The notes beneath the pieces are model-generated. The model searched no databases. It was not told where the DNA came from and worked only from the letters and a program-made list of their open reading frames with translations. A DNA stretch of 64,000 nt, from IMG/VR virus record IMGVR_UViG_3300030372_001717; one strand, 5' to 3'. The position numbers and the translations under genes are program-made. Below, piece by piece: positions 13,916 through 64,000 of the stretch; position 1 is the first letter of the stretch; the number at the start of each line of letters is the position of its first letter. The stretch comes from an uncultured virus (IMG/VR IMGVR_UViG_3300030372_001717) (lineage: Duplodnaviria > Heunggongvirae > Uroviricota > Caudoviricetes).

Positions 13916-16342
13916 CTAACCTTGTTGTTTCATCATCTCGCGCTCTCTAGCAGCATTTATACGAGCTTGCACGATTTCTTCTTGTGACTGAATACGGGCG
14001 GCACCCAATTGGGCTGAGTTCTCAGCTTTCTGTTGATCCAAAGCCAACCTAGCTTGGTCATTCTGAGCTTCAGCGGCATCTCGTTCTGCACGTAACTGAA
14101 GATCTTGTTGTTTTAACGCAATCAACGGATCAGGCTGTTCACCACCCCCGCTTATTTGACCACTAAGTGCTTTAACCTCTTGCATACCCTGAGCCACAAG
14201 TTGTGCAACCATGCTTTCCACTTGCAAAGCTTGCTCTTCGTTGGGAGGTTGTGATCCCAACTGTTGTTGCATCTCTGCAATGACCTGTTCTTTAGCCTTA
14301 ATAGATACGTGCTCCATAATGTGCTTTTGGAGCGCCATAGCTACATTAGGCATCTGTGAGACCATTGGAGAAGATCCAAACACAAGGTGCGCGATTATAT
14401 GAGCATCATGGTTTTGACCTTGAAATACTCTAAGTGGCAAGTTTTCTAATGCCTCTGAGTTCTCCACCGCAGGATCTTTTGGCGTAGGCTCACCCTGATC
14501 TTGAGGTTTCAGTATACCATCTACGTCTTTGACACCCACCGCTTTGTACATGCGACGATACGCTTCGTACATGTTGTGAATGTCCGGTGCAGATTGCGCC
14601 AACTGTAGCTCCGTCTGAGCCAAAGTGACTCTTTGGGCCATTGAGAAGATGTTGGGGTCAGACACCGGAACAACATCAACCCTAGCATCGAAGTCCTCCG
14701 CTTTTATGGTGCGCTCTGCACCTACTACATTGTATGGATACTCTGGGGGCAGATACTCTCCAAAGACATTTGCAAGAAGTTCAAACTCTTCTTTCTGAGC
14801 ATAGTGCAGGCGCTTATGTATGGCCGACATGACCTTTGCGCCCTGCTCTAACATGGCAATTGTTGTTCCAACCGCAGCCTGCTGGTTTCCGTCGCCTACC
14901 TGCAAATTAGAAACAGCAGCAAAACGTTGCCCCGCTTCCACACAAAAACCCATCAAACTAAACAACGTTTGATCTGCTCCCTTATACGGAAGCAACATCA
15001 AAGAGTCGCGTATGGCACCACCCGGAGCATCTACATCTCTGAACTCACCCGGAGACAATGGATCGTCGTCGTCTCGTATCCGAAGTCCACGAGCCTTAAA
15101 ACCTGCTGGTAAGTTAGAAAGCGTACCTGCATCTATAAGCTGGCGTAGCGCAGCAGTTGCAGTACGGCTCAAACCACCAATCATGTGTATCAGACCCAAA
15201 CCATAAAACCCAAAGCCCGGTAAAAACTTGAAGTGAACAAAGTACTGGTTTTTGTTCCGGTTTGGATCATCTGGCTTATAGTTCCTACGAATGCTCAGAA
15301 GCTTGCCGTTGTTTTCGGCTACAGTTACAACGTATGGCAGCTTAATACCTGTGGGTTCACCGTCATCCCCAGTGTCTTCGTACCCTTCTAGATCCAGGTC
15401 TACGTGGCATTCCAACAAAGTTATTTCTTGGTCAAGCGCATTGGGTGATATACCAGAGATGTCGTCCATTTCTTCGCGGACCTCTGAAGGATCAGCTTGA
15501 GATGCGCTCACCTCTATGTCGCTGTAAAAACCTGCAACCTGTTTCTTGCGAAGTTCATTCTCTGTAATCTGAATAACGTGCGTGACGTTTTCGGCAGTCT
15601 CTAAATCTGTCGCCGTGTAAGGAACAATCAACTGTTCGGCAGGCACAAACTTACTTACAGCCCTTCCAAGAAACTCGTCGTAGTACACCTTCTTGAATGT
15701 AGATCCAGAAAGCGGGAGATAAAACAACATCTGGTCAAATTCCGGTGTGTATTCTTTCATCACACAGGTAATCTGATAATTCATAAAGTGGCGGACCCTA
15801 TCTGCTTGGTTCTCGACTTCTGGAGTTACTTTACCAATAACTTCGGTGCGAACCGGACCACCCGCAGGCAAAAGTTCTCCAAAAGCCTGCGCCTGGAACT
15901 GTGTTACAGACTCTGCCAGTAGCGGATGCGTTACACCCGTAGCCCCACGGAAAGGCTCTGTGCGTTCCTCATACTTAAACCCAAGCAATTCGAGACCCGT
16001 TTTGTAACAGTTCTCCCAATCCTTACGACCTTCTTTGTTTGCCTCATACTCACCCAACAAATCAGAAGCAATCCGGGATGAAATAATATCTCCAAGATCT
16101 TCAGATAGGTTATCGTAGAAGTCACCCGTGTCTGGACGCGACATAGCGGGATCAAAGTCAACAACAACGCCCCCGTCTTCCTCTAACTCAATGCTCAACT
16201 CAGGCGTTTCGATTACCGTATCATCGTCAACGGCAACCTCTTCTTCTCCGCCTTCTTCTAAATCCACAGGAGGTATCTCATTACGGCGCTCTACGAGAGA
16301 AGCCGTTCCTGAAATACTACGAGGCAACGGATTTCTAGCCAT
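13916..16342 (-). CDS. portal protein (P22-like)
   Basis: 808 aa; HPLLAESVTQFQAQA, LFYLPLSGSTFKKVY, LRQLIDAGTLSN, MSAIHKRLH; C-terminal coiled coil. Confidence 0.88.
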   Translation of the reverse strand: MARNPLPRSISGTASLVERRNEIPPVDLEEGGEEEVAVDDDTVIETPELSIELEEDGGVVVDFDPAMSRPDTGDFYDNLSEDLGDIISSRIASDLLGEYEANKEGRKDWENCYKTGLELLGFKYEERTEPFRGATGVTHPLLAESVTQFQAQAFGELLPAGGPVRTEVIGKVTPEVENQADRVRHFMNYQITCVMKEYTPEFDQMLFYLPLSGSTFKKVYYDEFLGRAVSKFVPAEQLIVPYTATDLETAENVTHVIQITENELRKKQVAGFYSDIEVSASQADPSEVREEMDDISGISPNALDQEITLLECHVDLDLEGYEDTGDDGEPTGIKLPYVVTVAENNGKLLSIRRNYKPDDPNRNKNQYFVHFKFLPGFGFYGLGLIHMIGGLSRTATAALRQLIDAGTLSNLPAGFKARGLRIRDDDDPLSPGEFRDVDAPGGAIRDSLMLLPYKGADQTLFSLMGFCVEAGQRFAAVSNLQVGDGNQQAAVGTTIAMLEQGAKVMSAIHKRLHYAQKEEFELLANVFGEYLPPEYPYNVVGAERTIKAEDFDARVDVVPVSDPNIFSMAQRVTLAQTELQLAQSAPDIHNMYEAYRRMYKAVGVKDVDGILKPQDQGEPTPKDPAVENSEALENLPLRVFQGQNHDAHIIAHLVFGSSPMVSQMPNVAMALQKHIMEHVSIKAKEQVIAEMQQQLGSQPPNEEQALQVESMVAQLVAQGMQEVKALSGQISGGGEQPDPLIALKQQDLQLRAERDAAEAQNDQARLALDQQKAENSAQLGAARIQSQEEIVQARINAAREREMMKQQG

Positions 16343-20410: not shown

Positions 20411-21902
20411 AATAACTCCGGATATAGGTTGACGGCTCTGTGTCTACCCAATCGTCACTTGGTAACTGTACAAAGTTTCCCTGACGATATCTCATCAAAG
20501 CTTGCGTGGTGCTATCCACAAGGTCATCGTACTCACCGTGCGGAAAAGCCGCGCACTCATCCATGACCTCATCAGCCCAACGTTCGTCCGGAGCCCAGAT
20601 CATCCCACTCTCAAACAAGGGAGAAACTGAGTGGACCCGCGTCACCTTATCGTTTCCCTTACTTGGTGTAAAGTTTACAACAGGTATACCAAGTTGACGT
20701 AGCTCGTGTGTCAACGGCATACCAGAGGCCTTTGCTTCTACGATTACTGTTTCGGGGTCCCAGAACCGATACTGCTCCAACGCCTCTACTTTTAACTCTG
20801 GAAAATCCCAACGTCCCTTTTTTGCATCCAGAAGTATAAGGTTGGGGGGTCCCTCCGCTTTAGGGTAAAATACACCCCACGTTGTTATTGCAGAGTAGTC
20901 GGCTGTCTCTTTTTTACTGAACGCCGTGTCATAACTCTGTATAACGTATTCAAGCTGGGGAACCTCGTCGCCCTCCCAGATGTTCCACCACTCCTTCTTT
21001 ATGATGGCACCCTCTTCCGAAGTTGGGTTCTGCTGCCATTGAGCATTCCACTTGCCAACGGACAGTGAGGCGCGGACCCCTTCTAGTTCTTCCTGCTTCC
21101 AAAACTCAGGCCAACAAGATTTGCCGCTTGGCATTAAAGCAGGAAACTCTACTACCTCCCACTGGTCCGCATGTTCATCAAAACCCTGCGCCTTAATAAC
21201 CTTTGCTGTAAGATCCTTCAAAGACCACCGGGTCATAACAATGACGATGGCACCTCCTGGCTGGAGCCTCTGCCGGGGACCCGACGTATACCACTCATAC
21301 GCATGTTCCATAGCAGTGTCCGAAAGAGCATCTTGCTCCGAATGCGGATCATCAATGATCAACAAGTCAGCACCGCGACCTGTAATCGCGCCACCCACAC
21401 CCGCAGCAAAGTATTCCCCTCCATGGTTCGTGGACCATCGTCCCGCAGCCTTGCTGTCTGCCTGCAAACCTACATCGTCAAAGATTGCTTTGTACTCGCC
21501 AGTGTCCAAAAGGTTACGAACCTTACGACCAAAGTTGACGGCAAGTTCAGCAGTGTGCGTTGTCTGAATGATTTTGGTTTTCGGAGCACGGCCAATGATC
21601 CAAGAGGGAAAGAGATAACTTGCAAACTCCGACTTCGTATGTCGCGGCGGCATGTTGATGATGAGACGTTTGTTCTTGCCCGTTGCAATGTCCTCAAACT
21701 TCTTTGCAATCATCTTGTGATGTGCGCCTGCAATAAATTCAGGCCAAACTTTTCTAACGTACTTTAGAAAGTCCTCTTTACACCCGTCTACTTCTGACAT
21801 CTGGGCTAGGCGTAGTTCAAGCTTCAGTCTGCGTTCTTCAACCTCTGGTGTTTCTGTTCTTAGCATGGGGGTCCCTGCACCTTTTTGTTTCACGTGAAAC
21901 AC
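20403..21902 (-). CDS. terL: terminase large subunit (true start may be 21866)
   Basis: Walker A-like INMPPRHTKS, Walker B LLIIDD, nuclease motifs QSYDTAF and YDDLVDS. Confidence 0.92.
   Translation of the reverse strand: MFHVKQKGAGTPMLRTETPEVEERRLKLELRLAQMSEVDGCKEDFLKYVRKVWPEFIAGAHHKMIAKKFEDIATGKNKRLIINMPPRHTKSEFASYLFPSWIIGRAPKTKIIQTTHTAELAVNFGRKVRNLLDTGEYKAIFDDVGLQADSKAAGRWSTNHGGEYFAAGVGGAITGRGADLLIIDDPHSEQDALSDTAMEHAYEWYTSGPRQRLQPGGAIVIVMTRWSLKDLTAKVIKAQGFDEHADQWEVVEFPALMPSGKSCWPEFWKQEELEGVRASLSVGKWNAQWQQNPTSEEGAIIKKEWWNIWEGDEVPQLEYVIQSYDTAFSKKETADYSAITTWGVFYPKAEGPPNLILLDAKKGRWDFPELKVEALEQYRFWDPETVIVEAKASGMPLTHELRQLGIPVVNFTPSKGNDKVTRVHSVSPLFESGMIWAPDERWADEVMDECAAFPHGEYDDLVDSTTQALMRYRQGNFVQLPSDDWVDTEPSTYIRSYYG
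21886..21901. promoter_or_regulatory. parS consensus palindrome
   Basis: TGTTTCACGTGAAACA, exact match to the ParB/Spo0J-binding consensus. Confidence 0.75.
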
Positions 21903-27876: not shown

Positions 27877-28013
27877 CTCTTTAACTGCCTCAAGACTTTC
27901 CAGCTTAGTTCAATGAGCGTGGGTGAGTAAACACCGGGGCTGGTGATGACGTGGATGGCTTCCTGCCGCAGGCGGTCCAAGGTGCGTTGGTAGCTGTAAA
28001 CACCGGGGCTCAT
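27873..28013 (-). CDS. hypothetical 46-aa protein
   Basis: GGAGG RBS; MSPGVYS...; ATGA coupling. Confidence 0.45.
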   Translation of the reverse strand: MSPGVYSYQRTLDRLRQEAIHVITSPGVYSPTLIELSWKVLRQLKR

Positions 28014-28225
28014 TTTTTTAACCTCCAGATGATGTATTTGTCTCCGCACTTGCCCGTCTCGGGTTCGCATATCTGCCCTGGAATAGATTCGGCTTTGGGG
28101 TTGGGCGGTTGTGGGCTGACATAGTGCCACGTTGCGCCATCTTTTATCTGTTGGATGGCCGTATCAAAAAATTTCTCATTCTCAATTAAAAAAACAAGAA
28201 CTGGAACGGCAAGTAATGCAATCAT
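28010..28225 (-). CDS. small exported/membrane protein
   Basis: MIALLAVPVLVFL...; GAGGAG RBS. Confidence 0.5.
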   Translation of the reverse strand: MIALLAVPVLVFLIENEKFFDTAIQQIKDGATWHYVSPQPPNPKAESIPGQICEPETGKCGDKYIIWRLKK

Positions 28226-28389
28226 ATTTCTATCTCCTCTATTGGGGTAACCCATTTCAAGACGCCCTCACTGTCGCATAGAGCGCACTGTGTAATTCTC
28301 TCTTGGCCTTGGTCATCCTTTTTTCTTAGGAACCCATTGCCAAAACATTCTGGACATACGCCTAATGCGGCGGCTGATTTTTCTTCCAT
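28222..28389 (-). CDS. 55-aa zinc-finger microprotein (not in ORF track)
   Basis: CPECFGNG...CALCDSEG; AGGAGG RBS directly after the array. Confidence 0.6.
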   Translation of the reverse strand: MEEKSAAALGVCPECFGNGFLRKKDDQGQERITQCALCDSEGVLKWVTPIEEIEI

Positions 28390-28401
28390 AACATCCTCCT
28401 A

Positions 28402-28921
28402 ATTTTCACTCGCTGGTCTTGGTTCTCTCAAGGTACTCTGGTTCATTCAGGCATATTGGTTCTCTCCGCAGTCGTGGTTCATTCAATCGTTCATTTTGGT
28501 TCTCTCTCCGCATTTGATTCATTCTCATTTTCTGGTTTGCTTGGTTATCCTGATTCATTCGCACGATCTGTTTCCGTCAGAGGTTTTGATTCATTCCCGA
28601 TAGATGGTTCTCTCATTCTGCTTAATTCATTCCAAACCAATGGTTCTCTTAGCCTATTTAATTCACTCTCGATGGATGGTTCTCTCATGCACGTTGGTTC
28701 ATTCGCCTTCATTGGTTCTCTCGGGTTCGCATGGTTCATTCGTAATCGCTGTTTCTATCGACGACCTTGGTTCATTCATTGTTTTTGTTTCTATTAGGTG
28801 CTCTGGTTCATTCGTCGTCTGTGGTTCTCTCTGAATTGCTGATTCATTCATTATCAATGGTTCTCTCGGATATACTGATTCATTCATTGCTCCTGGTTCT
28901 CTCGGCAAAGTTGATTAGAAC
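28402..28921 (-). ncRNA. TIGR-like tandem interspaced guide RNA array, 14 units of ~36 nt
   Basis: Alternating 10-nt repeats GAGAGAACCA and GAATGAA(C/T)CA separated by 28 different spacers (mostly 8 nt; two 9 nt; one 12 nt). Confidence 0.85.
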
Positions 28922-29721
28922 GGACACTCCATTTTATGCACATGATCCGCGTGAGCAAAGACATATGGAACGGGTGCAGGTTTGTTGTAATGGTGCTCGT
29001 ACCATGCCTCGTGAAGATGGCTTAAAAACATCTTGACGGCGTACCGCTTGGCCCGTGCGTGGATATGTGCAGGGGGTAGCTTGCCAACGGAGTAAGCTTT
29101 GTAGGCATCCGTTGTTTTGCCAATGTTGAACTTCTCAAGCTTGGCGGCGGCTTGGTCTGCAAACTCACCGTTCTCATTGCGGATGAGTTCGTCAGCTTTG
29201 CGGTCCTTGTACAAGTGTCCATACACCGCTGTTTCTTTACCAGATACCTTTACGAATGATTCGCCTAGCTTCCAGCAAAGAGTTTTGAGGCTGGCATTGT
29301 GCGGACGTTTTGTACCCTTCTTCCATTCGCTGGTAGGATCTAAACCAGCATACCGCCAGATGGACCCGGCTGTATTGGCCTTTGTTATATCAATGTGAGC
29401 CAAGAGCCCTGCTGCGATAACAGGTCCGACGCCGTCTACGCTTCTGATCCGTTGGCCGATAGGATGGCCTGCCGAATAAACGTCGAGCGCACCTTTAACT
29501 TGGTTCTCTAGCACGGATGACTGCTCACCAAGCCATGTCAGAACGTCGTGTGGTTCGTTGTCCATGGACCGTACCTGACCTGCCGCCCGTATGCGGTCAT
29601 CTTGCATTTGGTAGTAGGAATCTACCAGAAACCTTGCTTCGTTTTCGGTAATGGTGACAGAAGCCTTTTTCATGTCTGACTTCAGTTTCTGTACGGGGGT
29701 CAATTCATATGGCTGTTGCAT
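28915..29721 (-). CDS. TasA-like Nop-domain (IS110-related) RNA-binding protein without nuclease domain
   Basis: LVDSYYQMQDDRIR coiled coil; SVDGVGPVIAAGLLA; IWRYAGLDP; HIHARAKRYAVKMFLSHL; no DEDD/RuvC or HNH; array directly downstream. Confidence 0.8.
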   Translation of the reverse strand: MQQPYELTPVQKLKSDMKKASVTITENEARFLVDSYYQMQDDRIRAAGQVRSMDNEPHDVLTWLGEQSSVLENQVKGALDVYSAGHPIGQRIRSVDGVGPVIAAGLLAHIDITKANTAGSIWRYAGLDPTSEWKKGTKRPHNASLKTLCWKLGESFVKVSGKETAVYGHLYKDRKADELIRNENGEFADQAAAKLEKFNIGKTTDAYKAYSVGKLPPAHIHARAKRYAVKMFLSHLHEAWYEHHYNKPAPVPYVFAHADHVHKMECPF

Positions 29722-30014
29722 TATTCTTCATCCTCTTCTGTTAGCATAGCCGCTAACACCGCTTGCCTGCGGCGTTCTTCAGCTAATGATATTACGGGTG
29801 CTTTGGTAAAGTGCTCTAATGTTTCAATGGCTCTGTCCAATTTGGGCAGAAGCTCATTAACCGCTTGTCTTAGTTTCTTGCGGTCCACTTTACGTTCAAT
29901 GTCGTGGGCCTCCGTGTAATTAGCCCACTCACTTAATGATTCGAGGGACGCGGTCACAGATGCAATCAACGTGACGGCGGTCTCTAGTTGTTTTTCGGGG
30001 GAGGTGTCTGTCAC
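29721..30014 (-). CDS. hypothetical helical protein
   Basis: Coupled to the TasA-like gene by TAATG overlap. Confidence 0.55.
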   Translation of the reverse strand: MTDTSPEKQLETAVTLIASVTASLESLSEWANYTEAHDIERKVDRKKLRQAVNELLPKLDRAIETLEHFTKAPVISLAEERRRQAVLAAMLTEEDEE

Positions 30015-30229
30015 TTGTTTTCTCCCGAAAGTTCTTCAACAGCGTTGTGCAATCTCCAAAAGGCTGACTGCAACTTGCGATAGTCCGACAAGTACATGTC
30101 CCCCTCCATCTCATTTAAATTTCTAATGGGGTCACACACTAAGGGTTCAAGACGTTTAATAAACTCAGGGTAAGTAACGTACTCGTTCCAAGACCATTGA
30201 ATAGTATTTTTTGGTTGACGTTTTTTCAT
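30011..30229 (-). CDS. hypothetical protein
   Basis: 72 aa, coupled to neighbours. Confidence 0.5.
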   Translation of the reverse strand: MKKRQPKNTIQWSWNEYVTYPEFIKRLEPLVCDPIRNLNEMEGDMYLSDYRKLQSAFWRLHNAVEELSGENK

Positions 30230-30420
30230 CAGTTGGCCTCCCTCATCCGCTGTTCTTGAAGCTTGCGGATCTTATCCTTCCAGATGGCCTTCACCTCTGG
30301 ATCATGGGCCAAGGACAGAACTCTCTTGCATCTTGCAATGCGCTGCTCTGTCGGTGAGGTCGGAAACATTCCCGTATGCAAAGCGTGGAAAGCTTCCAGG
30401 ACTCTTTCTATTTCAGTCAT
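30229..30420 (-). CDS. hypothetical protein
   Basis: AAGGAG RBS; MTEIERVL... Confidence 0.5.
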   Translation of the reverse strand: MTEIERVLEAFHALHTGMFPTSPTEQRIARCKRVLSLAHDPEVKAIWKDKIRKLQEQRMREAN

Positions 30421-56553: not shown

Positions 56554-59500
56554 CTATCGTGCCGTTGCTGGCGTGGTTCCTGCAAAGGGGTGTTCTGCCC
56601 AAGCTCCAAATATCATGTCATCATCAGTTGTAACGATGCTGCCTAGATCACAGACAAATCCATTACTTATAATATCAATGTAAACACCAGAATTAGATGC
56701 TTCTGTGCCAGGATCATCCCATTTTACATATCTATAAGCTGGATTATTTGGATCACGGGCTATGTCCTGAACATACCAGCTATCGGCAGCACTTGTTCTT
56801 TTCAGAAAAATTAACGCTGGTGTAAATCCACATTCAACAAACGGGTCACCAGAACTGCCCGATGAAAATGATCCAAATTTTGAGAATCCTGGTACTTCTG
56901 CCCAGCAATATGCGATCATATCATCTGTGGATTTGTTGACATCAGTCGTTCCATCCACTGAAAAGACCGTGCTAGTTGGTGTAGTGTCCTGCCAGCGATC
57001 ACCAGTCGTCGCTGCATTAGTAAGATCTAAAAAACTATGATGAGTATTACCCTGACCAACATGATAAACCGGCCAGTTGTTTCCTGCGCTGTCACGGTTT
57101 TTTACTACAATCCATTTTGGAACAGCCCCAAGTCCATGTCCTATCGTAGCATTAGCTCCAGAACCCGTCCAAGATACTATAGAAAAGCCAGCCGTTTGAT
57201 TGACACTAACAGTGCTTGTGATGCTGCCGTTTGAATTGCTTGAACCCGTAGTGTTATCAGCAAGCCATTGCCATGCGATCATTGTCTTAGTGTTAGCGTT
57301 AGGGGCTGAGTTATTTCCACCACCTTGAAAACTAAACCCATCAGCGTCAAATGATTCAAATGCTTTATTCCCTGAACCTTCATCATCATTATGTTCTGAA
57401 AAATTTTGATTCGGGGTCAATCGTCTTGGATTAGTTGCATCGCTTCGTTGGACATCATATAAACTTGAATTAGGTGGATAAGACTCTCTACCCTGAAGCC
57501 ATAAAAGATCTGGTTTAAATGTGCTATTACCAGTTTGATTGATTTCTTGTGTACTACCATTACCTGTATATAGTGTTGTTTGGAAATGAGCAGAGCCGTC
57601 TTCAATAGCGGGTGCTGATCCTGCAAAAGCATCTTTAGCTGTAAGACCCGTNNNNNNNNNNTCTGTGCCTGTAAATGAAACAACATAGTAAGGCTCGTCT
57701 GCAAAACCCAAACTGCTATAAGTTGTGTCAAGGCTACCATTAAAATAATATCTAACAGTGGTCGAACCAATGGTAGACATATCAACTTCAAATGTAAGTC
57801 GTGAATTTGTTGTTGGCTTATTAGTTGGTGCAGTTAGTGAGCCATTATCAAATGCGGCGGTGTTTGACCCAGTGCCACCTGATTTAATCAGGCTAAATGT
57901 AAATTGATCATTTGTTCCAGTAAGAGGTGAAGCATCTGATGACCACATGCTATGGGGTACAAGAGCCAATTGGAATCTTGCATATGCGCTGGAGTGCATA
58001 CTCTCAGTCACGGCCTCAAAGTGATATTTCTGCCCTGGCTGAAGCAATTGAGAAGCCGCTGCCATAATATCACCAGAGCTGCCACTTGTATGAGTCAGTG
58101 TTCTGTTGCCATTCGTAAATGTCCAATCACTTGCAACACCAGAAAAGCTGGTCTGATGACGGGTAATTAACGGTGAGAAAGTGGCTGCATTGGTCGTCGG
58201 GCTGTCAGTGGTCTGCGTGGGTGAATTCACTGTTATAAACCCGCTAGTACCTCCTACGTTTCCACCGTTTAATGTTGTACTGCCATTAACCCATCTAAAG
58301 TATTCCCAATCAAGACTTGATGAACTTTGACCAATTAAAATACGTACTTCACTTGAACTAGTACCTGTAAATGTATGTCGTAAAGTTCCATCTTCAAAAA
58401 CTTTAAACTCACTGCCTGACCGTTGAAACTTTACAACTTCACCGCTTGCTGCTGTAAAGATTGATGATGCTTCAGTAGATGATCCTTTTAGTGCATTAAC
58501 AGCATTGCCACTTGTAAAGAACAGATAAAAACTATCTGTCATAGAACCCATGCCACCATCTGACGAGCCACTAGAAAAAGTACCGTCTTCGTCAATTTCA
58601 TAAACACCAACATAAGCTGGATTTGATCCACCCTTCCATGTAAAATCAAAAGCAAAATCACCAGTAAAAGTCTTGTTAGTTCTGATCGCTCCTTGGTTGC
58701 CACCAGTAGCAACTATGTCCGTATCAAGCGTACTAAAGTCTCCCGTGTCGCCGTTCCATTCAGACGCTGTTGTCATCGCTACGCCAACGCCGCTTCCTGA
58801 TTTGTAGTCTGCTCCAAGGTAATTGCTGTCTGTAAATGGGAGGTAAAATCCTTGATCTCCCGCACCTTGAGTAGGACTTAAAACAATACAAACAGTTCTA
58901 GCACGAGTATCGTTTGATGAAGGTGTACAAGTTACGGTAAAGTCACCACCAGTTGATTTTGCTGAAGATGCGCCAGATTGAACCACACCACTTCCAATCA
59001 CCTGATCAACATTTTCTGTAACATCACTAGACCAACCATGTGTACGGCTACCAGTACCACCACGCCCAGCAAGAATAACACTACCGTCTGGTATATCTGA
59101 TAAAGTAAATGAAGCTGTTGAATCTGATGTTGTTTGCATATTAGATAAAAAATGATCACCTGTTACTGCCCAAGCGATAACTCCGCACTGAGACATACCT
59201 GTGTTCCATGTGACAACAATATCCCCAGTTGTACCCGATGGAACGTCAGCCCTCCAAAGTTCAGAAACATAATATTGTGGTTCAACCGAGTTAGAAACAT
59301 CAGATACTCTAGTAGCAGATACCCCACCAACCGTTAAAGAACTCACATCAGGGGCAGTAACTCCTGGTTCTTGCCCTGTTGCAAAAACATAAACAGAACG
59401 AGTAGAGGATGCTGTTCCTAATGCTACGCCGCTATAGGTATAAGTTGTGAGGGGATTAGCGTTTACCGCACTTGCCGAATTAGCTATCGCTTCGGCTGTT

Positions 59501-60168
59501 GAGCTTACGGTAAAAAGATCGCTAGAACTAACATCTATAGGACGCCAAACACCATTATCATCTTTTTCACCAAAAGCTGTTGGGGCTAAACTCTGTCCGT
59601 CACAGTAAACGACTTCAGATATGTAGCCGTCCCAGTCATGTCCTGTCCCACCTGACCAACTACCAATTCTCCAGTCAGGAGTGTTTTGAAAAATGTCACC
59701 GTTTTCACTCGGATAAGTTGGAGTGCCATCAATGTCTGACACTAGTTCTCCATTGATATACAGTTTTACTCTGTTAGACGCTGTGTCTTGACTCGTATCT
59801 ATCCGAACAACCGCATTATACCAAGCGTGCGGATCTCTGAAAACTCGCTCGGTTGTAATACTAGTGCCACCCGCCGCATTACCGTTTACAAGCATTTTGT
59901 TGCTTGAGCCAAAAATCAAAAGCTCGATATTGGGCGAACTGCCGTCTCCGTGATTCCAAATTCTTAAATTGTTCCCGCTGGGAAAATTACCACGTTTAAA
60001 CCAAACTGATATTGTGCCTATGTCTGCGCTTGAGGGATTAGATGATGAATCACCTGTATTTATTTTTCGCAGATACTTATCATTATCGTCATCAAGCACC
60101 ATACTGTTATTAATAGCAAAACCGCCAGAAGAAAAAGATAAAATACCAAGAGGAATAGAGTGAAGCAT
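56554..60168 (-). CDS. LamG-containing tail fibre; spans the N gap and is probably a chimeric ORF
   Basis: LamG N-terminus; DSPT motif; LYTGNG...FKPDLLW and AGFSIVSWTG...HGLG C-terminal repeats. Confidence 0.6.
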   Translation of the reverse strand: MLHSIPLGILSFSSGGFAINNSMVLDDDNDKYLRKINTGDSSSNPSSADIGTISVWFKRGNFPSGNNLRIWNHGDGSSPNIELLIFGSSNKMLVNGNAAGGTSITTERVFRDPHAWYNAVVRIDTSQDTASNRVKLYINGELVSDIDGTPTYPSENGDIFQNTPDWRIGSWSGGTGHDWDGYISEVVYCDGQSLAPTAFGEKDDNGVWRPIDVSSSDLFTVSSTAEAIANSASAVNANPLTTYTYSGVALGTASSTRSVYVFATGQEPGVTAPDVSSLTVGGVSATRVSDVSNSVEPQYYVSELWRADVPSGTTGDIVVTWNTGMSQCGVIAWAVTGDHFLSNMQTTSDSTASFTLSDIPDGSVILAGRGGTGSRTHGWSSDVTENVDQVIGSGVVQSGASSAKSTGGDFTVTCTPSSNDTRARTVCIVLSPTQGAGDQGFYLPFTDSNYLGADYKSGSGVGVAMTTASEWNGDTGDFSTLDTDIVATGGNQGAIRTNKTFTGDFAFDFTWKGGSNPAYVGVYEIDEDGTFSSGSSDGGMGSMTDSFYLFFTSGNAVNALKGSSTEASSIFTAASGEVVKFQRSGSEFKVFEDGTLRHTFTGTSSSEVRILIGQSSSSLDWEYFRWVNGSTTLNGGNVGGTSGFITVNSPTQTTDSPTTNAATFSPLITRHQTSFSGVASDWTFTNGNRTLTHTSGSSGDIMAAASQLLQPGQKYHFEAVTESMHSSAYARFQLALVPHSMWSSDASPLTGTNDQFTFSLIKSGGTGSNTAAFDNGSLTAPTNKPTTNSRLTFEVDMSTIGSTTVRYYFNGSLDTTYSSLGFADEPYYVVSFTGTXXXXTGLTAKDAFAGSAPAIEDGSAHFQTTLYTGNGSTQEINQTGNSTFKPDLLWLQGRESYPPNSSLYDVQRSDATNPRRLTPNQNFSEHNDDEGSGNKAFESFDADGFSFQGGGNNSAPNANTKTMIAWQWLADNTTGSSNSNGSITSTVSVNQTAGFSIVSWTGSGANATIGHGLGAVPKWIVVKNRDSAGNNWPVYHVGQGNTHHSFLDLTNAATTGDRWQDTTPTSTVFSVDGTTDVNKSTDDMIAYCWAEVPGFSKFGSFSSGSSGDPFVECGFTPALIFLKRTSAADSWYVQDIARDPNNPAYRYVKWDDPGTEASNSGVYIDIISNGFVCDLGSIVTTDDDMIFGAWAEHPFAGTTPATAR
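57652..57661. other. scaffold gap
   Basis: 10 consecutive N. Confidence 0.99.
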
Positions 60169-62559
60169 TTAACTTACGCCACCATGATTACCTATAAGAA
60201 GCCACGTATCAGTAGCTATTTTTAAACAAGACGCTGAAGCGTACTGTGCAGCTATCGCACCTGAACCTGTGCTTACACCGTTTACGGTTACACCACTACC
60301 ACCTGTAATGGTAGTTGTTCCAGAACCTAACATTACTACATCAATTCTATCACCTACTGCAAAAGCTACACTAGAGTTAGGAGGTATTGTTAAAGTATTA
60401 GAACTTGCGTTACTCATTGTTACTGTTTTAAACGCATCACCAATAACTAATGTATACGATGTTCCTGTTTGAGCATTAACGGCACCAGCTATTTTAGCAG
60501 GAGTTACAGCGTTATCTTGAATATCCGCTGTTTCAATTGTATCAGCAGGCAGTACAGGAACTTGACTAAATGTAACTACACCGTTAGATGCTATAGCAAT
60601 TGCATCTGTATCACTTGTATGCCCAATGTTTGTGCCGTTAATAATAATGTCGTCTACGGTAAGAGTAGTCAGAGTACCAAGAGAAGTAATGTTACTTTGA
60701 GCGGAACCTGTAACAGTAGCTGCTGTACCACTGACGTTACCAGTTACGTTACCAGTTAAGTCTCCTTCAAATACTGCATTAATTGTTCCTACAGAACCAC
60801 TAACAACTTCACTAGATATACTTGCATCAGGTATAAATTTAAGTTTATAAGAGTCGTTATCATCAATACCAAGAAATGCAGTTTTTGCTGCACTACCTGT
60901 ATGATATTGCATTGCGATACCTACGTCTTTATTGGTATCTGATCCTAGCACACCACCATCAGATGCTGTTTGTAGGGTAATAATAGGATCAACAACGGCC
61001 AGTGTCGTTGTGTCAAGTGTTGTAGTTGTGCCGTTAACAGTAAAATTACCCGTCACTGTAAGATTCTGTGACATAGATACATTGCCGCTAGAATCAATAG
61101 CCATAGAATCTGTATCACTAGCAGAGCCAATATTACCACCATCAGGTATAACAAGACCACCTGCACTTAGTGTGAGAACACCCGCACCAGACAATTGCAT
61201 TTTAGAAGCAGGAGTATCAGTGTTGGCAGCTTTTGTTTTAAAATCAATAGAAGATGTGCCAGTTCCATCACCACCACCTGAAGACAGTGTGAGATTACCG
61301 CCGTTTACGTTATTAGAGCCTGTAGCACTAGAACCAGCAGCAACCGTCAGATTTTTACCTGCTGTTGTGCTAGTAGTAGAGGCTACACCAATTTCCCAGT
61401 TAGCTCCGTTAGTAAACGTTACACCACCATCATCTATCTGTACAATATCTGTACCGTCTACATCAAAAAGTATCTTACCAGCATCTCCACCAGTATCGGC
61501 GGTTGCTGTAGATATTTCTAGATAGTTAAGTGTCTGTGCGCTGGAATCAAATACAGCTTGTATCATTCCTTTCTCAGCGTCTGCACCACCTATAGATATA
61601 GATGGACTACCATCGTTTACATCTTCTAGAAGTTTAAGATCAGAGCCATCAAAGGTAAGGTGATCTTCACCTGCAAGGGCGTTAGCACCAGTAACTGTAG
61701 CTATTGTATTGTCAGTGCTTCCAGTAAGAGAAACGTTGTTAAGTGAACTTAAACCATCTAGAAGGTTCAATTCTGTAGCAGTAGACGTAACAAGAGTGCC
61801 ACCTAGTTTAAGACCACCCGCTGCACCATCGTGTGTGATAATATCTACTGTGATATCAGTATCAGTACCTGCACCTAATATTGAAAGACCTTTAGTAAGA
61901 GTGCCATCATTCTCTGCAACAAAAAAGTCTATGCCGCCTTGTTCACCACCAGCGGTAACATCTACAATGGTAGATTGTATGCGTCCGTATGTTGTAGCAG
62001 CGTTTCCTGCATCTTCACTCAAAAAATCTATGTTGCCAATTACATCGTTTGTTGCTGGGCTGCTTCCGTCTTTTTTAAATTTAAGTGTTGCACTGTTAGC
62101 ATCTGCGTTACTGTTAAACAACGTTAGAACAGGTTTGGCAGAGGTTGCACTTTCGATGGCCATATCTGATCCTGTCAATACAAGATCATTATCGCCATCT
62201 TCATCGTATTCTATTGTCCATTCTGAGCCAGTTCCAAAGATAAGTTTTTCATCATCTGCGATCATAACATCGTCAGAATACTTAAACATATCCTCATCTT
62301 CTAACCACGTTAGAACACCGTCATTATTTTCCCCGTCAAACGTTACGGTAATGTCTGTTCCTGCAGTTCCTGCGCCTAGCGTGATAGAGTTACTACCTGC
62401 TAACTTTGATAGTCCACCACCATTACCTGCTGTTCCATCGTGTGTGTGACCGCTTGTACCAAAGGCTGTTACAATTGCATCAAACTCGTTATTAGAGTCA
62501 GACGCATTAATTGTATCGCCAGTTGTATACGTGCTTTGTCGTGATGCATATCCCGCCAT
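60169..62559 (-). CDS. tail fibre protein of the second phage segment
   Basis: MAGYASRQSTYTTGDTINASDSNNEFD...GHTHDGT; NITSLGTLTTLTV; C-terminal NAQTGTSYTLV...TIPPNSSVAF. Confidence 0.7.
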   Translation of the reverse strand: MAGYASRQSTYTTGDTINASDSNNEFDAIVTAFGTSGHTHDGTAGNGGGLSKLAGSNSITLGAGTAGTDITVTFDGENNDGVLTWLEDEDMFKYSDDVMIADDEKLIFGTGSEWTIEYDEDGDNDLVLTGSDMAIESATSAKPVLTLFNSNADANSATLKFKKDGSSPATNDVIGNIDFLSEDAGNAATTYGRIQSTIVDVTAGGEQGGIDFFVAENDGTLTKGLSILGAGTDTDITVDIITHDGAAGGLKLGGTLVTSTATELNLLDGLSSLNNVSLTGSTDNTIATVTGANALAGEDHLTFDGSDLKLLEDVNDGSPSISIGGADAEKGMIQAVFDSSAQTLNYLEISTATADTGGDAGKILFDVDGTDIVQIDDGGVTFTNGANWEIGVASTTSTTAGKNLTVAAGSSATGSNNVNGGNLTLSSGGGDGTGTSSIDFKTKAANTDTPASKMQLSGAGVLTLSAGGLVIPDGGNIGSASDTDSMAIDSSGNVSMSQNLTVTGNFTVNGTTTTLDTTTLAVVDPIITLQTASDGGVLGSDTNKDVGIAMQYHTGSAAKTAFLGIDDNDSYKLKFIPDASISSEVVSGSVGTINAVFEGDLTGNVTGNVSGTAATVTGSAQSNITSLGTLTTLTVDDIIINGTNIGHTSDTDAIAIASNGVVTFSQVPVLPADTIETADIQDNAVTPAKIAGAVNAQTGTSYTLVIGDAFKTVTMSNASSNTLTIPPNSSVAFAVGDRIDVVMLGSGTTTITGGSGVTVNGVSTGSGAIAAQYASASCLKIATDTWLLIGNHGGVS

Positions 62560-64000
62560 TACATTCTAGCCCCTGGAGTAAATTCTAGTTCAAATCCTTT
62601 TAGTGTTATAGGAGGATTACCTGATTCGTCTTCAACTCTTATAACTACTGTAAACCCACTACCCTCTACACTTTGTCGAACAATGGGTATTCCTGTTGCA
62701 CCGTACACGGACGTATCATAGGTTCCTGTTCCGTATACAGCGGCTGTGCTTTGTGTTGTTAAAGTATAAGCTGCAGGTTGCGGAGAACTTGCATCTTCAA
62801 AGTCATACTTTACAAATAGAGATGCGTTAACGCTTCCCTCTGTATCAAAGTTAAGATTGATACGTTGCATGTTTTTGCGTATACCCGCATCTCCCATAGT
62901 GAGGTCAGGAGAACGGTATATCGCTCTTATGTTTGTGCCATCAAAATCGTTACCTAGTTCCTGTCTAAAAACATAACCATCAAAACTACCATGCACTACA
63001 GTTTCATTGGCTCCTATAAAATCAGAGTCAGCAGAAGCTGCTTTAACACCTTTTAAATCTGCGTATTCCCACCCTATCTGTCCTTGTGGGTTTGACTTGA
63101 TAACGCCTATAATACCTTGTGCGCTGGCTTCTGAACCGCCTATGGTTGGGTAAAACAAGCGGTACTGGCTTTTGGTTCTAATAACAGTAGAACATATATT
63201 ATCAAAACCAATCTCATTAATACGTTGTTGTATTTGTTTTGATACAGTTCCTAGTTCTACGTCACCAATTCTAGCAGTACCAGCAATTGTACGTAGACCG
63301 TCTGGTGCTAGAAAGATTAAGTCACCACCTATTTCCTGCACACTGTTGCCATCGCTACAACCAATGTTACGAGACACTGGTGCAATTGCAAAGTCAGAAC
63401 TAGAACTACCTGTTAGTTTAAATATTCTGTCTTTGCCAAAGATAATAAGTGACTCACGAAACGATTTAAGAGCAACAACTTCCGTATCTACTTTTACGTT
63501 ACCTGAACCTGTGCCTGTATAATCAGTTTCATCAAACGGTACTGTAAACTGAACCTGTTGTTTTGCAGCAGAGGCACCAGCATAGAAGATATGGTTTTTA
63601 AATGCTGCTACTGATGTAGCGTTAGCTGGTGCGCCTGAAGCGTTTAGCGCGGTCAGTACACCGCCAGTAGTATATCTTGCTGGTGTGTTAGCACCATCGA
63701 CCCATATAATAGAGTCCGTTCCGTTAAAGTTATATTTTTCAAAACGTGGTCTATTAGGTGTATTGGATTGAGTACCGATAGAAGACCAAGCACCTCCTGT
63801 TCCAAACTTAACCGCTGTGCCAGAAATTGCTATAACACCGCTGTTAAATACAGCTACACCCGTAACCTTATTACTCCCGTTAACTTGACCAGAGGCAAAC
63901 TTAGTTGTTCCATCTATACGTCTATAACCACCCTTAACAGATGGCTCGTAATTTTGTAGTATACTAGCAGCACCCACAGGCATTGTGTACACATCACGGT
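62559..64000 (-). CDS. second nozzle/stabilization-type protein, 5' end beyond window
   Basis: LQNYEPSVKGGYRRIDG; QEIGGDLIFLAPDGLRTIAGTARIGDVELG; KSQYRLFY; frame open to window edge. Confidence 0.7.
   Translation of the reverse strand, partial: RDVYTMPVGAASILQNYEPSVKGGYRRIDGTTKFASGQVNGSNKVTGVAVFNSGVIAISGTAVKFGTGGAWSSIGTQSNTPNRPRFEKYNFNGTDSIIWVDGANTPARYTTGGVLTALNASGAPANATSVAAFKNHIFYAGASAAKQQVQFTVPFDETDYTGTGSGNVKVDTEVVALKSFRESLIIFGKDRIFKLTGSSSSDFAIAPVSRNIGCSDGNSVQEIGGDLIFLAPDGLRTIAGTARIGDVELGTVSKQIQQRINEIGFDNICSTVIRTKSQYRLFYPTIGGSEASAQGIIGVIKSNPQGQIGWEYADLKGVKAASADSDFIGANETVVHGSFDGYVFRQELGNDFDGTNIRAIYRSPDLTMGDAGIRKNMQRINLNFDTEGSVNASLFVKYDFEDASSPQPAAYTLTTQSTAAVYGTGTYDTSVYGATGIPIVRQSVEGSGFTVVIRVEDESGNPPITLKGFELEFTPGARM

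What the first reader, a model, noticed from the sequence alone, without database searches (positions are those of the whole stretch)
28742..28911. Paired spacers resemble conserved phage genes, with mismatches only at third codon positions
Joining spacer A to the reverse complement of spacer B (assumed TIGR geometry): unit 1 gives ACTTTGCCATTGCTCC, 14/16 to ACTTTGCAATTGCACC (minus strand 63379-63394, DFAIAP in the second phage's nozzle gene). Unit 5 gives AGGTCGTCGTAATCGC, 13/16 to terL 20521-20536 (GDYDDL versus own GEYDDL). All five mismatches are at wobble positions. Unit 3 reads AIQSS, like the PolA IQSSAAD motif. My rough uniform-composition estimate is ~0.5 chance hits at 2 or fewer mismatches and several at 3 or fewer, so only the wobble pattern is suggestive. 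Inferred: the array targets related or co-infecting phages while sparing self. The search was by eye and not exhaustive.
Basis: partly seen in the sequence, partly recalled or inferred. Interest (0 to 1): 0.7.

Follow-up and report, generated by a model that had tools for sequence, protein, structure and literature searches.

The report
Phage TIGR array; spacer matches unproven
A marine phage carries a known kind of RNA-guide array (TIGR with a nuclease-free TasA protein); the reported likeness of its guides to phage genes is mostly what chance gives, but one guide exactly matches the terminase gene of a related phage and remains an open lead.

Summary
The sequence facts are right. 28402-28921 (minus strand) is a 14-unit dual-repeat TIGR array (10-nt edge and loop repeats, 8-nt spacers, 36-nt units) just downstream of a 268-aa nuclease-free Tas protein. 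The assumed geometry, spacer A + reverse complement of spacer B, matches published oligos. Unit 1 matches 63379-63394 at 14/16 and unit 5 matches terL 20521-20536 at 13/16. All five mismatches fall on third codon positions.

The number of near-matches is at chance level: 1 site at <=2 and 8 at <=3 mismatches for 14 units, against 0.5-0.6 and 7.9-8.5 per 14 for mis-paired and shuffled controls. The wobble pattern is borderline (p about 0.02-0.05).

Exact scans of IMG/VR:
- Unit 5: 13 of 49 hits lie at the homologous TerL site of one related, tasA-less phage lineage.
- Units 1, 3 and 9: no hit in any relative.

That TerL motif is nearly saturated with codon variants (48 distinct 16-mers in 120 contigs), so an exact hit is not rare. 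A sister phage's unit 5 differs by one base, and that allele also occurs in the same lineage.

Across 555 units from 55 related arrays, an apparent excess of hits in portal genes (p 0.0005) failed replication (p 0.49). Verdict: a known system whose targets remain unproven, with one testable lead.

The parts
28915..29721 (-). tasA: 268-aa nuclease-free TIGR-associated (Nop-domain) protein
   Evidence: PDB sequence search: TasH chains E 6.2e-12 (query 81-160 to chain 132-213) and 9mty_A E 4.2e-11 (query 68-178 to 150-263, and 217-266 to 270-318). PHROG phrog_4285 E 2.7e-49 over residues 9-265. Pfam Transposase_20 E 1.3e-5, with no HNH or RuvC family. An 81%-identical relative (the protein of locus L003) is listed among Tas proteins in Faure 2025 Table S1.
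28402..28921 (-). TIGR array, 14 units. Each unit is edge repeat GAATGAAYCA, spacer A, loop repeat GAGAGAACCA, spacer B. [quoted passage not shown]
   Evidence: Period 36; repeat families; full parse. 25 of 28 spacers are 8 nt; spacer A of units 6 and 14 is 9 nt; spacer B of unit 12 is 12 nt.
28742..28911 (-). Units 1-5, the stretch named in the finding
28886..28911 (-). Unit 1 (spacer A 28904-28911, spacer B 28886-28893)
   Evidence: 14/16 to 63379-63394. 43 exact IMG/VR hits, none in a relative of gene 62559-63992.
28814..28839 (-). Unit 3 (spacer A 28832-28839, spacer B 28814-28821)
   Evidence: No window site at <=3 mismatches. One exact IMG/VR hit, in a tail-collar-domain gene.
28742..28767 (-). 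Unit 5 (spacer A 28760-28767, spacer B 28742-28749). This is the only unit with an exact match in a relative's gene.
20521..20536 (+). The phage's own terL site (GEYDDL), 13/16 to the unit 5 target, with 3 mismatches all at codon position 3
63379..63394 (-). Site in gene 62559-63992, 14/16 to the unit 1 target, with 2 mismatches at codon position 3
28222..28389 (-). Small Cys-rich ORF directly after the array. Its ribosome-binding site and ATG abut the last truncated repeat.
   Evidence: Only weak zinc-ribbon-like Pfam hits, below cut-off. No terminator-like site between the array and this ORF on the minus strand.
29721..30014 (-). 97-aa ORF whose end overlaps the tasA start by one base; no family assigned

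Best explanation
This is a genuine TIGR-TasA locus of a marine phage. The array is most likely transcribed with tasA on the minus strand and cut into 36-nt tigRNAs. Each tigRNA carries two 8-nt spacers.

A TasA dimer loaded with one tigRNA would bind a 16-bp DNA site reading spacer A followed by the reverse complement of spacer B, one spacer pairing with each strand. With no nuclease domain, it would block transcription or replication there rather than cut.

Shown here: the protein family, the array anatomy and the geometry of published targets. Inferred by analogy with FpTasA and MbTasA: expression, processing, binding and repression.

The exact TerL match of unit 5 can arise by chance because the guide happens to fit, in frame, a very conserved and codon-saturated TerL motif. 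The natural targets of the array remain unidentified.
For: Family and anatomy.

Geometry: Faure 2025 Table S3 gives tigRNA1 and its target as spacer A + rc(spacer B).

Chance level in the window:
- 1 and 8 sites for 14 units, against 0.5-0.6 and 7.9-8.5 per 14 in 182 mis-paired and 700 shuffled controls.

IMG/VR scans:
- Units 1, 3 and 9: no exact hit in relatives of the genes they resemble (0 of 43, 0 of 1, 0 of 34).
- None of the other 13 units lies within 2 mismatches of contig G001. In G002 only unit 9 does, at two 2-mismatch sites. This is like the mis-paired controls.

Family-wide tests:
- 1322 adjacent spacer pairs from 59 arrays: 1 exact and 33 at <=1 mismatch. 21,403 controls: 4 and 588.
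- On TerL-site loci: 2 and 34, against 8 and 478.
- The portal excess of 6/555 against 11/8017 did not replicate on 162 new portal loci: 2/555 against 23/8017, p 0.49; fresh queries 0/535 against 9/7839.
- Allowing gaps of 1-2 bp changes nothing.
- No other array among the 500 loci carries a unit fitting the TerL motif.
Against: - Wobble-only sites in the window: 3 observed against 0.54-0.82 expected (p 0.018-0.050).
- Unit 5 matches 13 contigs of one TerL lineage exactly, at the homologous site. That lineage lacks tasA in 5 of 5 records, the longest being 51% and 76% complete.
- The sister array L001 carries unit 5 with one changed base. That base falls on a synonymous position of the TerL frame, and this allele occurs in 3 contigs of the same lineage and in 1 other TerL relative.
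- In the first family database, true-geometry pairs beat all five composition-matched wrong geometries for wobble-only hits at <=1 mismatch: 16 against 7, 11, 5, 1 and 7. GC-matched expectation is 7.2, z 3.3. Two of the 16 are unit 5 and its orthologue, in loci fetched with their own motif.
Confidence: 0.55

Rival explanations
1. Unit 5, and perhaps other units whose targets are not in the databases, is a real guide against the terminase gene of a competing, tasA-less relative. TasA-tigRNA binds the competitor's terL and blocks its expression or replication during co-infection. The phage's own terL escapes through three synonymous-position mismatches. The one-base difference between the window's guide and the sister phage's guide tracks two alleles of the competitor.
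For: - Exact 16/16 match at the homologous TerL codons in 13 of 49 IMG/VR hits, all from one lineage about 66% identical in TerL.
- No tasA in 5 of 5 records of that lineage.
- The phage's own site is 13/16 with wobble-only mismatches.
- The L001 allele of the guide is found in 3 contigs that align closely with the same lineage.
- One contig of the lineage (L095) and L001 carry the same numeric prefix in their IMG/VR names.
- Published TasA proteins repress transcription at guide-matched sites (Xu et al. 2026 preprint, section read).
Against: - Only 1 of the 4 units scanned has such a match.
- No other unit hits the lineage's 42.9-kb and 47.5-kb contigs beyond control level.
- The motif is codon-saturated: 48 variants in 120 contigs, so any in-frame 16-mer has at least about a 1 in 5 chance of an exact hit. 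The lineage is polymorphic at most wobble sites near the target, so a matching second allele is not rare either; my rough estimate is 5-20%.
- No replicated family-wide enrichment.
- No other array carries a guide for this site.
- L095, the contig with the same name prefix as L001, holds the allele that mismatches L001's guide by one base.
Confidence: 0.33
2. The guides act on DNA that was not available here, such as the host chromosome (host gene silencing) or unrelated mobile elements. The matches to phage genes are irrelevant.
For: - No perfect site in the window.
- No enrichment in 2.7 Mb of related phage DNA.
- The authors of both TIGR papers list host silencing and other MGEs among open roles (passages and sections read).
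- Spacers of shared units differ at about 10 of 160 positions between two phages whose tasA genes differ at 36 of 807. The guides therefore drift or track something.
Against: Nothing tested here speaks directly against it. No host genome is held. The only host hint is weak: portal relatives lie on contigs binned into 3 Verrucomicrobiota and 1 Rhodobacteraceae MAGs.
Confidence: 0.1

Closest known systems
Dual-repeat TIGR-TasA systems (FpTasA, MbTasA; Faure et al. 2025, PMC12045711; Xu et al. 2026 preprint 10.64898/2026.09.09.750476)
   Same: - Solo Nop-domain Tas protein.
- Array of alternating edge and loop repeats with 36-nt units on the tas strand.
- Truncated edge repeats at both ends.
- Phage-borne.
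- An 81%-identical protein is in the published Tas list.
   Different: - The variable spacers are 8 nt with 10-nt repeats, where the main text describes mostly 9-nt spacers.
- Repeats begin with GA, where the TaTasR and ParTasR guides have UG after the spacer.
- No terminator-like site follows the array.
- Expression and binding were not tested.
SpTasH of Salicola phage CGphi29 and TaTasR (solved structures: 9W04 and its group; 9mty)
   Same: Best sequence matches in the PDB over the Nop domain (E 6e-12 and 4e-11). Same tandem-spacer logic.
   Different: Those proteins carry an N-terminal HNH or RuvC nuclease and cut DNA. Here the homology starts at about residue 68-81 of 268, and no nuclease family is found.
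Phage- and plasmid-borne CRISPR systems that interfere without cutting (type IV, V-M), cited by Faure et al. as the analogy for TasA
   Same: A guide array on a mobile element, proposed to act against rival elements by binding.
   Different: No cas genes. Repeats are 10 nt. The split guide pairs with both DNA strands. No PAM is reported for TIGR (passage read).

Membership tests
TIGR-Tas | Tas protein with a Nop domain | tested here: met
   PDB phmmer hits to TasH (E 6.2e-12) and 9mty_A (E 4.2e-11). phrog_4285 E 2.7e-49. An 81% relative is listed in Faure 2025 Table S1.
TIGR-Tas | Array of two alternating short repeats (edge, loop) with short spacers, units of 36 nt | tested here: met
   14 units, 10-nt repeats, 25 of 28 spacers 8 nt.
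TIGR-Tas | [quoted passage not shown] | tested here: met
   The same ends are seen in L001-L003.
TIGR-Tas | Rho-independent terminator after the array (described as typical, not obligatory) | tested here: not met
   No terminator-like site on the minus strand in 27900-30300. The next ORF starts right after the last repeat.
TIGR-Tas | Box C- and box D-like nucleotides flanking each spacer | tested here: inconclusive
   Repeats end in CCA/YCA, like the CCA box C quoted for ParTasR. After the spacer comes GA rather than UG.
TIGR-Tas | Processing into 36-nt tigRNAs; C-terminal Tyr/His processing loop of dual-repeat systems | not testable with these tools
   No RNA run holds the locus. The C-terminus aligns with that of 9mty_A and contains Tyr and His residues, but the dyad was not mapped.
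TasA subclass | No HNH or RuvC nuclease domain | tested here: met
   268 aa. Nop homology begins at residue 68-81, against 132-150 in TasH and TasR. Pfam finds no nuclease family.
TIGR-Tas | Tandem-spacer recognition of a target reading spacer A + rc(spacer B) | not testable with these tools
   The geometry is taken from published oligos. Only unit 5 has an exact site of this form in a relative's gene.
CRISPR-Cas | Single repeat of about 24-40 nt with spacers of similar size, and cas genes | tested here: not met
   Two alternating 10-nt repeats and 8-nt spacers. No cas-like family among 67 window proteins scanned against PHROGs.

The most novel reading that the evidence does not exclude
Unit 5 would be the first natural TIGR guide with an identified target. 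A nuclease-free TasA complex of one marine phage would bind the terminase gene of a related, tasA-less phage at a 16-bp site. The phage's own terminase would escape through three synonymous-position differences. Guide alleles in sister phages would follow target alleles in the rival lineage, an arms race between phages fought with split 8+8-nt guides.
Probability: 0.3. Interest if true: 0.8.

Novelty: new member of a known kind. Interest (0 to 1): 0.42.

Why it matters
Both TIGR papers I read state that natural targets of TIGR spacers are not known, because short spacers give many false matches (Faure 2025 discussion; Xu 2026 discussion).

This locus shows concretely how such false matches arise. 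A 16-mer that happens to fit a conserved, codon-saturated motif will find exact hits.

It also supplies one concrete three-allele test case: the rival's terL site (16/16), the sister allele (15/16) and the phage's own site (13/16). This would let a laboratory ask directly whether a TasA guide discriminates self from rival.

Tried and rejected
1. Family-wide portal targeting. Wobble-only hits at <=1 mismatch in portal relatives were 6/555 true against 11/8017 mis-paired (Fisher 0.00048, or 0.0027 with orthologues merged). The category was chosen after seeing the data, and it failed on 162 independent portal loci from metagenome, viral and genome collections (2/555 against 23/8017, p 0.49). Rejected.

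2. Multiple guides against the rival lineage. Only unit 5 hits. Pooled arrays on the lineage gave 6/1322 against 83/21,403 at <=1 mismatch.

3. Gapped targets (1-2 bp, or a fixed GC from the repeat flanks). No excess.

4. Recurrent targeting of the TerL motif by other arrays. Only L001 among 500 loci.

5. The 14-nt identity between unit 6 and gene 28010-28255. There is no co-variation in L001.

6. Faster evolution of spacers than of tasA. About 10 substitutions in 160 nt of shared spacers against 36 of 807 in tasA, both counted by hand. Not clearly different.

7. No RNA holder listed. Laying four DNA runs gave only identical short contigs.

8. Whether 41-64 kb is a second phage. 0 of 5 head-gene relatives and 1 of 5 TasA phages (26% identity) hold a relative of gene 62562-63992. 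Unresolved.

9. No whole genome is held and there are no earlier notes.

10. Rows dropped from the family sets: arrays under 12 repeats, loci L019, L020 and L022, arrays without an assignable edge repeat, and spacers not 8-9 nt long.

11. bioRxiv supplements and the TIGRSafari resource could not be seen. They may already annotate this array.

Full report
WHAT IS THERE

Region 28402-28921 has a 36-nt period. It is built from two alternating 10-nt repeats. Read on the minus strand it parses into 14 units: edge repeat GAATGAAYCA, spacer A, loop repeat GAGAGAACCA, spacer B.

[quoted passage not shown] - 25 of 28 spacers are 8 nt.

The upstream gene (28915-29721, minus strand, 268 aa) is a Tas protein.

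- Its best PDB matches are TasH chains (E 6.2e-12) and 9mty_A (E 4.2e-11), both over the Nop-domain part.
- It matches phrog_4285 end to end (E 2.7e-49).
- Pfam sees only the IS110-type Transposase_20 segment and no nuclease family.
- A protein 81% identical to it, the one encoded in locus L003, is listed among Tas proteins in Table S1 of Faure et al. 2025 (rows seen).

The locus is therefore a dual-repeat TIGR-TasA system, a known kind. Its setting is a marine phage: terminase, portal, head, polymerase, primase and helicase families, and marine metagenome holders.

GEOMETRY

Table S3 of Faure et al. gives the synthetic TaTasR tigRNA1 and its target. The five-unit stretch 28742-28911 holds units 1-5.

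THE OBSERVATION

All stated matches exist. Unit 1 is 14/16 to minus strand 63379-63394. Unit 5 is 13/16 to 20521-20536 in terL. All five mismatches are on third codon positions. The own terL site encodes GEYDDL and the unit 5 target encodes GDYDDL. Unit 3 reads AIQSS, but it has no DNA site within 3 mismatches in the window.

In number, the near-matches are what chance gives:

| Query set | Queries | Sites at <=2 mismatches | Sites at <=3 mismatches | Per 14 queries |
|---|---|---|---|---|
| True units | 14 | 1 | 8 | 1 and 8 |
| Mis-paired A_i+rcB_j | 182 | 8 | 110 | 0.62 and 8.5 |
| Shuffled | 700 | 25 | 393 | 0.5 and 7.9 |
| Wrong geometries (three sets of 14) | 42 | 0, 0, 1 | 7, 5, 13 | as listed |

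The wobble pattern is borderline.

- Over all eight true sites, 12 of 23 mismatches are at position 3 (p 0.048).
- Sites whose mismatches are all at position 3 number 3 (units 1, 5, 11), against 0.54-0.82 expected per 14. Poisson p is 0.018-0.050.

TESTING THE PREDICTION OF PERFECT HITS

Exact scans of IMG/VR gave the following.

| Unit | Exact hits | Hits in relatives of the resembled gene |
|---|---|---|
| 5 | 49 | 13, in TerL relatives (56-68% identical to the window's TerL), at the homologous codons, all from one lineage |
| 1 | 43 | 0 in a relative of gene 62559-63992 |
| 9 (both alleles) | 34 | 0 in portal |
| 3 | 1 | 0; the hit lies in a gene with a phage tail-collar domain (E 6e-25) |

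For unit 1, the hits also fell into redundant clusters as large as 13 in unrelated phages, so cluster size alone means nothing.

The lineage hit by unit 5 has no tasA in 5 of 5 records. The two long ones are 42.9 kb (51% complete) and 47.5 kb (76% complete). No other window unit comes within 2 mismatches of G001. In G002 only unit 9 does, at two 2-mismatch sites, which is no more than the mis-paired controls give.

HOW SURPRISING IS THE UNIT 5 HIT?

Those 120 contigs already hold 48 distinct 16-mers out of the 256 the motif allows, and 5 of the 120 carry the unit 5 target. Any 16-mer that fits this motif in frame therefore has at least about a one-in-five chance of an exact hit. The real coincidence is the in-frame fit itself, and that is the borderline wobble statistic above.

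One further fact favours a real target. The sister phage L001 differs from the window in tasA at 36 of 807 bases (my count). It shares 11 units with the window, and its unit 5 differs by one base. That base is a synonymous position of the TerL frame. The corresponding allele occurs in 5 contigs: 3 align closely with the same lineage, 1 is a more distant TerL relative, and 1 is unrelated. Because that lineage is polymorphic at most third positions near the site, I estimate the chance of this second coincidence at roughly 5-20%. That figure is inference, not a computed value.

FAMILY-WIDE TESTS

I fetched 77 TasA loci and parsed 59 arrays with 1829 spacers.

Exact and one-mismatch hits of adjacent spacer pairs were no more frequent than those of non-adjacent pairs:

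| Database | Adjacent pairs (n = 1322): exact, <=1 mismatch | Controls (n = 21,403): exact, <=1 mismatch |
|---|---|---|
| TasA loci | 1 and 33 | 4 and 588 |
| The rival lineage | 1 and 6 | 0 and 83 |
| 120 TerL-site loci | 2 and 34 | 8 and 478 |

With the register assigned (555 true units from 55 arrays), hits with mismatches only at third positions were somewhat enriched.

- Any such hit: 411/555 against 5342/7687 (p 0.013).
- At <=1 mismatch: 16/555 against 112/7687 (p 0.012).
- This was more than in five composition-matched wrong geometries: 7, 11, 5, 1 and 7.
- The GC-matched expectation is 7.2.

All of the excess lay in portal relatives (6/555 against 11/8017) and in TerL, where it was only unit 5 and its orthologue, in loci fetched with their own motif. 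There was none in other genes.

I then fetched 162 further portal loci from three collections and repeated the test. The results were 2/555 against 23/8017 at <=1 mismatch (p 0.49) and 8/555 against 113/8017 at <=2 mismatches (p 0.53). For queries without an earlier hit, the counts were 0/535 against 9/7839. The portal signal did not replicate, and I treat it as a fluctuation.

Two further checks added nothing. Allowing 1-2 bp gaps made no difference. No other array among the 500 loci carries a guide fitting the TerL motif.

CONCLUSION

The system is real and of a known kind. The reported likenesses are, in aggregate, what chance gives. Units 1 and 3 fail the test of perfect hits.

Unit 5 is an open lead. 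It has an exact site in the terminase gene of a related, tasA-less lineage, a 13/16 site in the phage's own gene, and a sister-guide allele that also exists in that lineage. All of this occurs at a motif where such hits are not rare.

My odds are about 0.55 that everything here is coincidence and the true targets lie elsewhere. I give about 0.3 that unit 5 is a genuine anti-terminase guide.

LITERATURE

- Faure et al. 2025 (PMC12045711): I read passages and rows of supplementary Tables S1 and S3.
- Xu et al. 2026 (10.64898/2026.09.09.750476): I read the abstract and sections 5, 10, 12 and 13.
- 10.64898/2026.08.11.744272: abstract only.
- 10.64898/2026.07.30.739390 and PMC13421893: passages only.

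Both main papers say natural targets are undetermined. My two library searches showed no paper reporting one: one search gave 51 papers with TIGR terms (listing only), and one search added nothing. bioRxiv supplements were closed.

Noticed in passing
window 28719-28732 and 28057-28070: A 14-nt exact identity joins the array (last base of an edge repeat, the 9-nt spacer A of unit 6, and the first 4 bases of the loop repeat) to the small gene 28010-28255 downstream. In L001 the gene site is unchanged, while the array copy differs at 2 of the 14 bases. There is no co-variation, so this may be chance (about 0.25 expected window-wide, my estimate).
   Followed up: yes
window 28402-28921 versus L001:1699-2430: Two phages whose tasA genes differ at 36 of 807 bases have arrays of 14 and 20 units, with 11 shared. 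The order of units 3 and 4 is swapped. Shared units carry about one substitution each. One spacer (TGGGGCGA) occurs three times in L001. Arrays appear to change by unit gain, loss and duplication as well as by point changes.
   Followed up: partly
L491-L494 (genome contigs): Portal relatives (61-64% identical) lie on contigs binned into three Verrucomicrobiota MAGs and one Rhodobacteraceae MAG. This is a weak hint about hosts, or mis-binned phage contigs.
   Followed up: no
window 41000-64000: Among relatives, 0 of 5 that share the head genes hold a homologue of gene 62562-63992, and only 1 of 5 complete TasA phages does (26% identity). One of the head-gene relatives is a 58-kb record rated 100% complete. 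No boundary was located.
   Followed up: partly
window 57652-57661: A run of 10 N lies inside a long open frame (56554-60168).
   Followed up: no
L057-L059, L062, L064 (jumbo-size contigs of 200-264 kb): Distant TasA relatives (37-48% identical) on very long viral contigs carry much longer arrays (up to about 110 repeats) with AT-rich repeat pairs such as TAATGAATCA / TATTGTATCA.
   Followed up: no
window 14475-14490 and L242:4828-4843: Unit 9, and its L001 allele, lies one third-position mismatch from a variable stretch of the portal gene of a 58-kb relative. The window's own portal differs at 6 of 16 there. No exact hit in portal genes exists in IMG/VR (0 of 34).
   Followed up: yes
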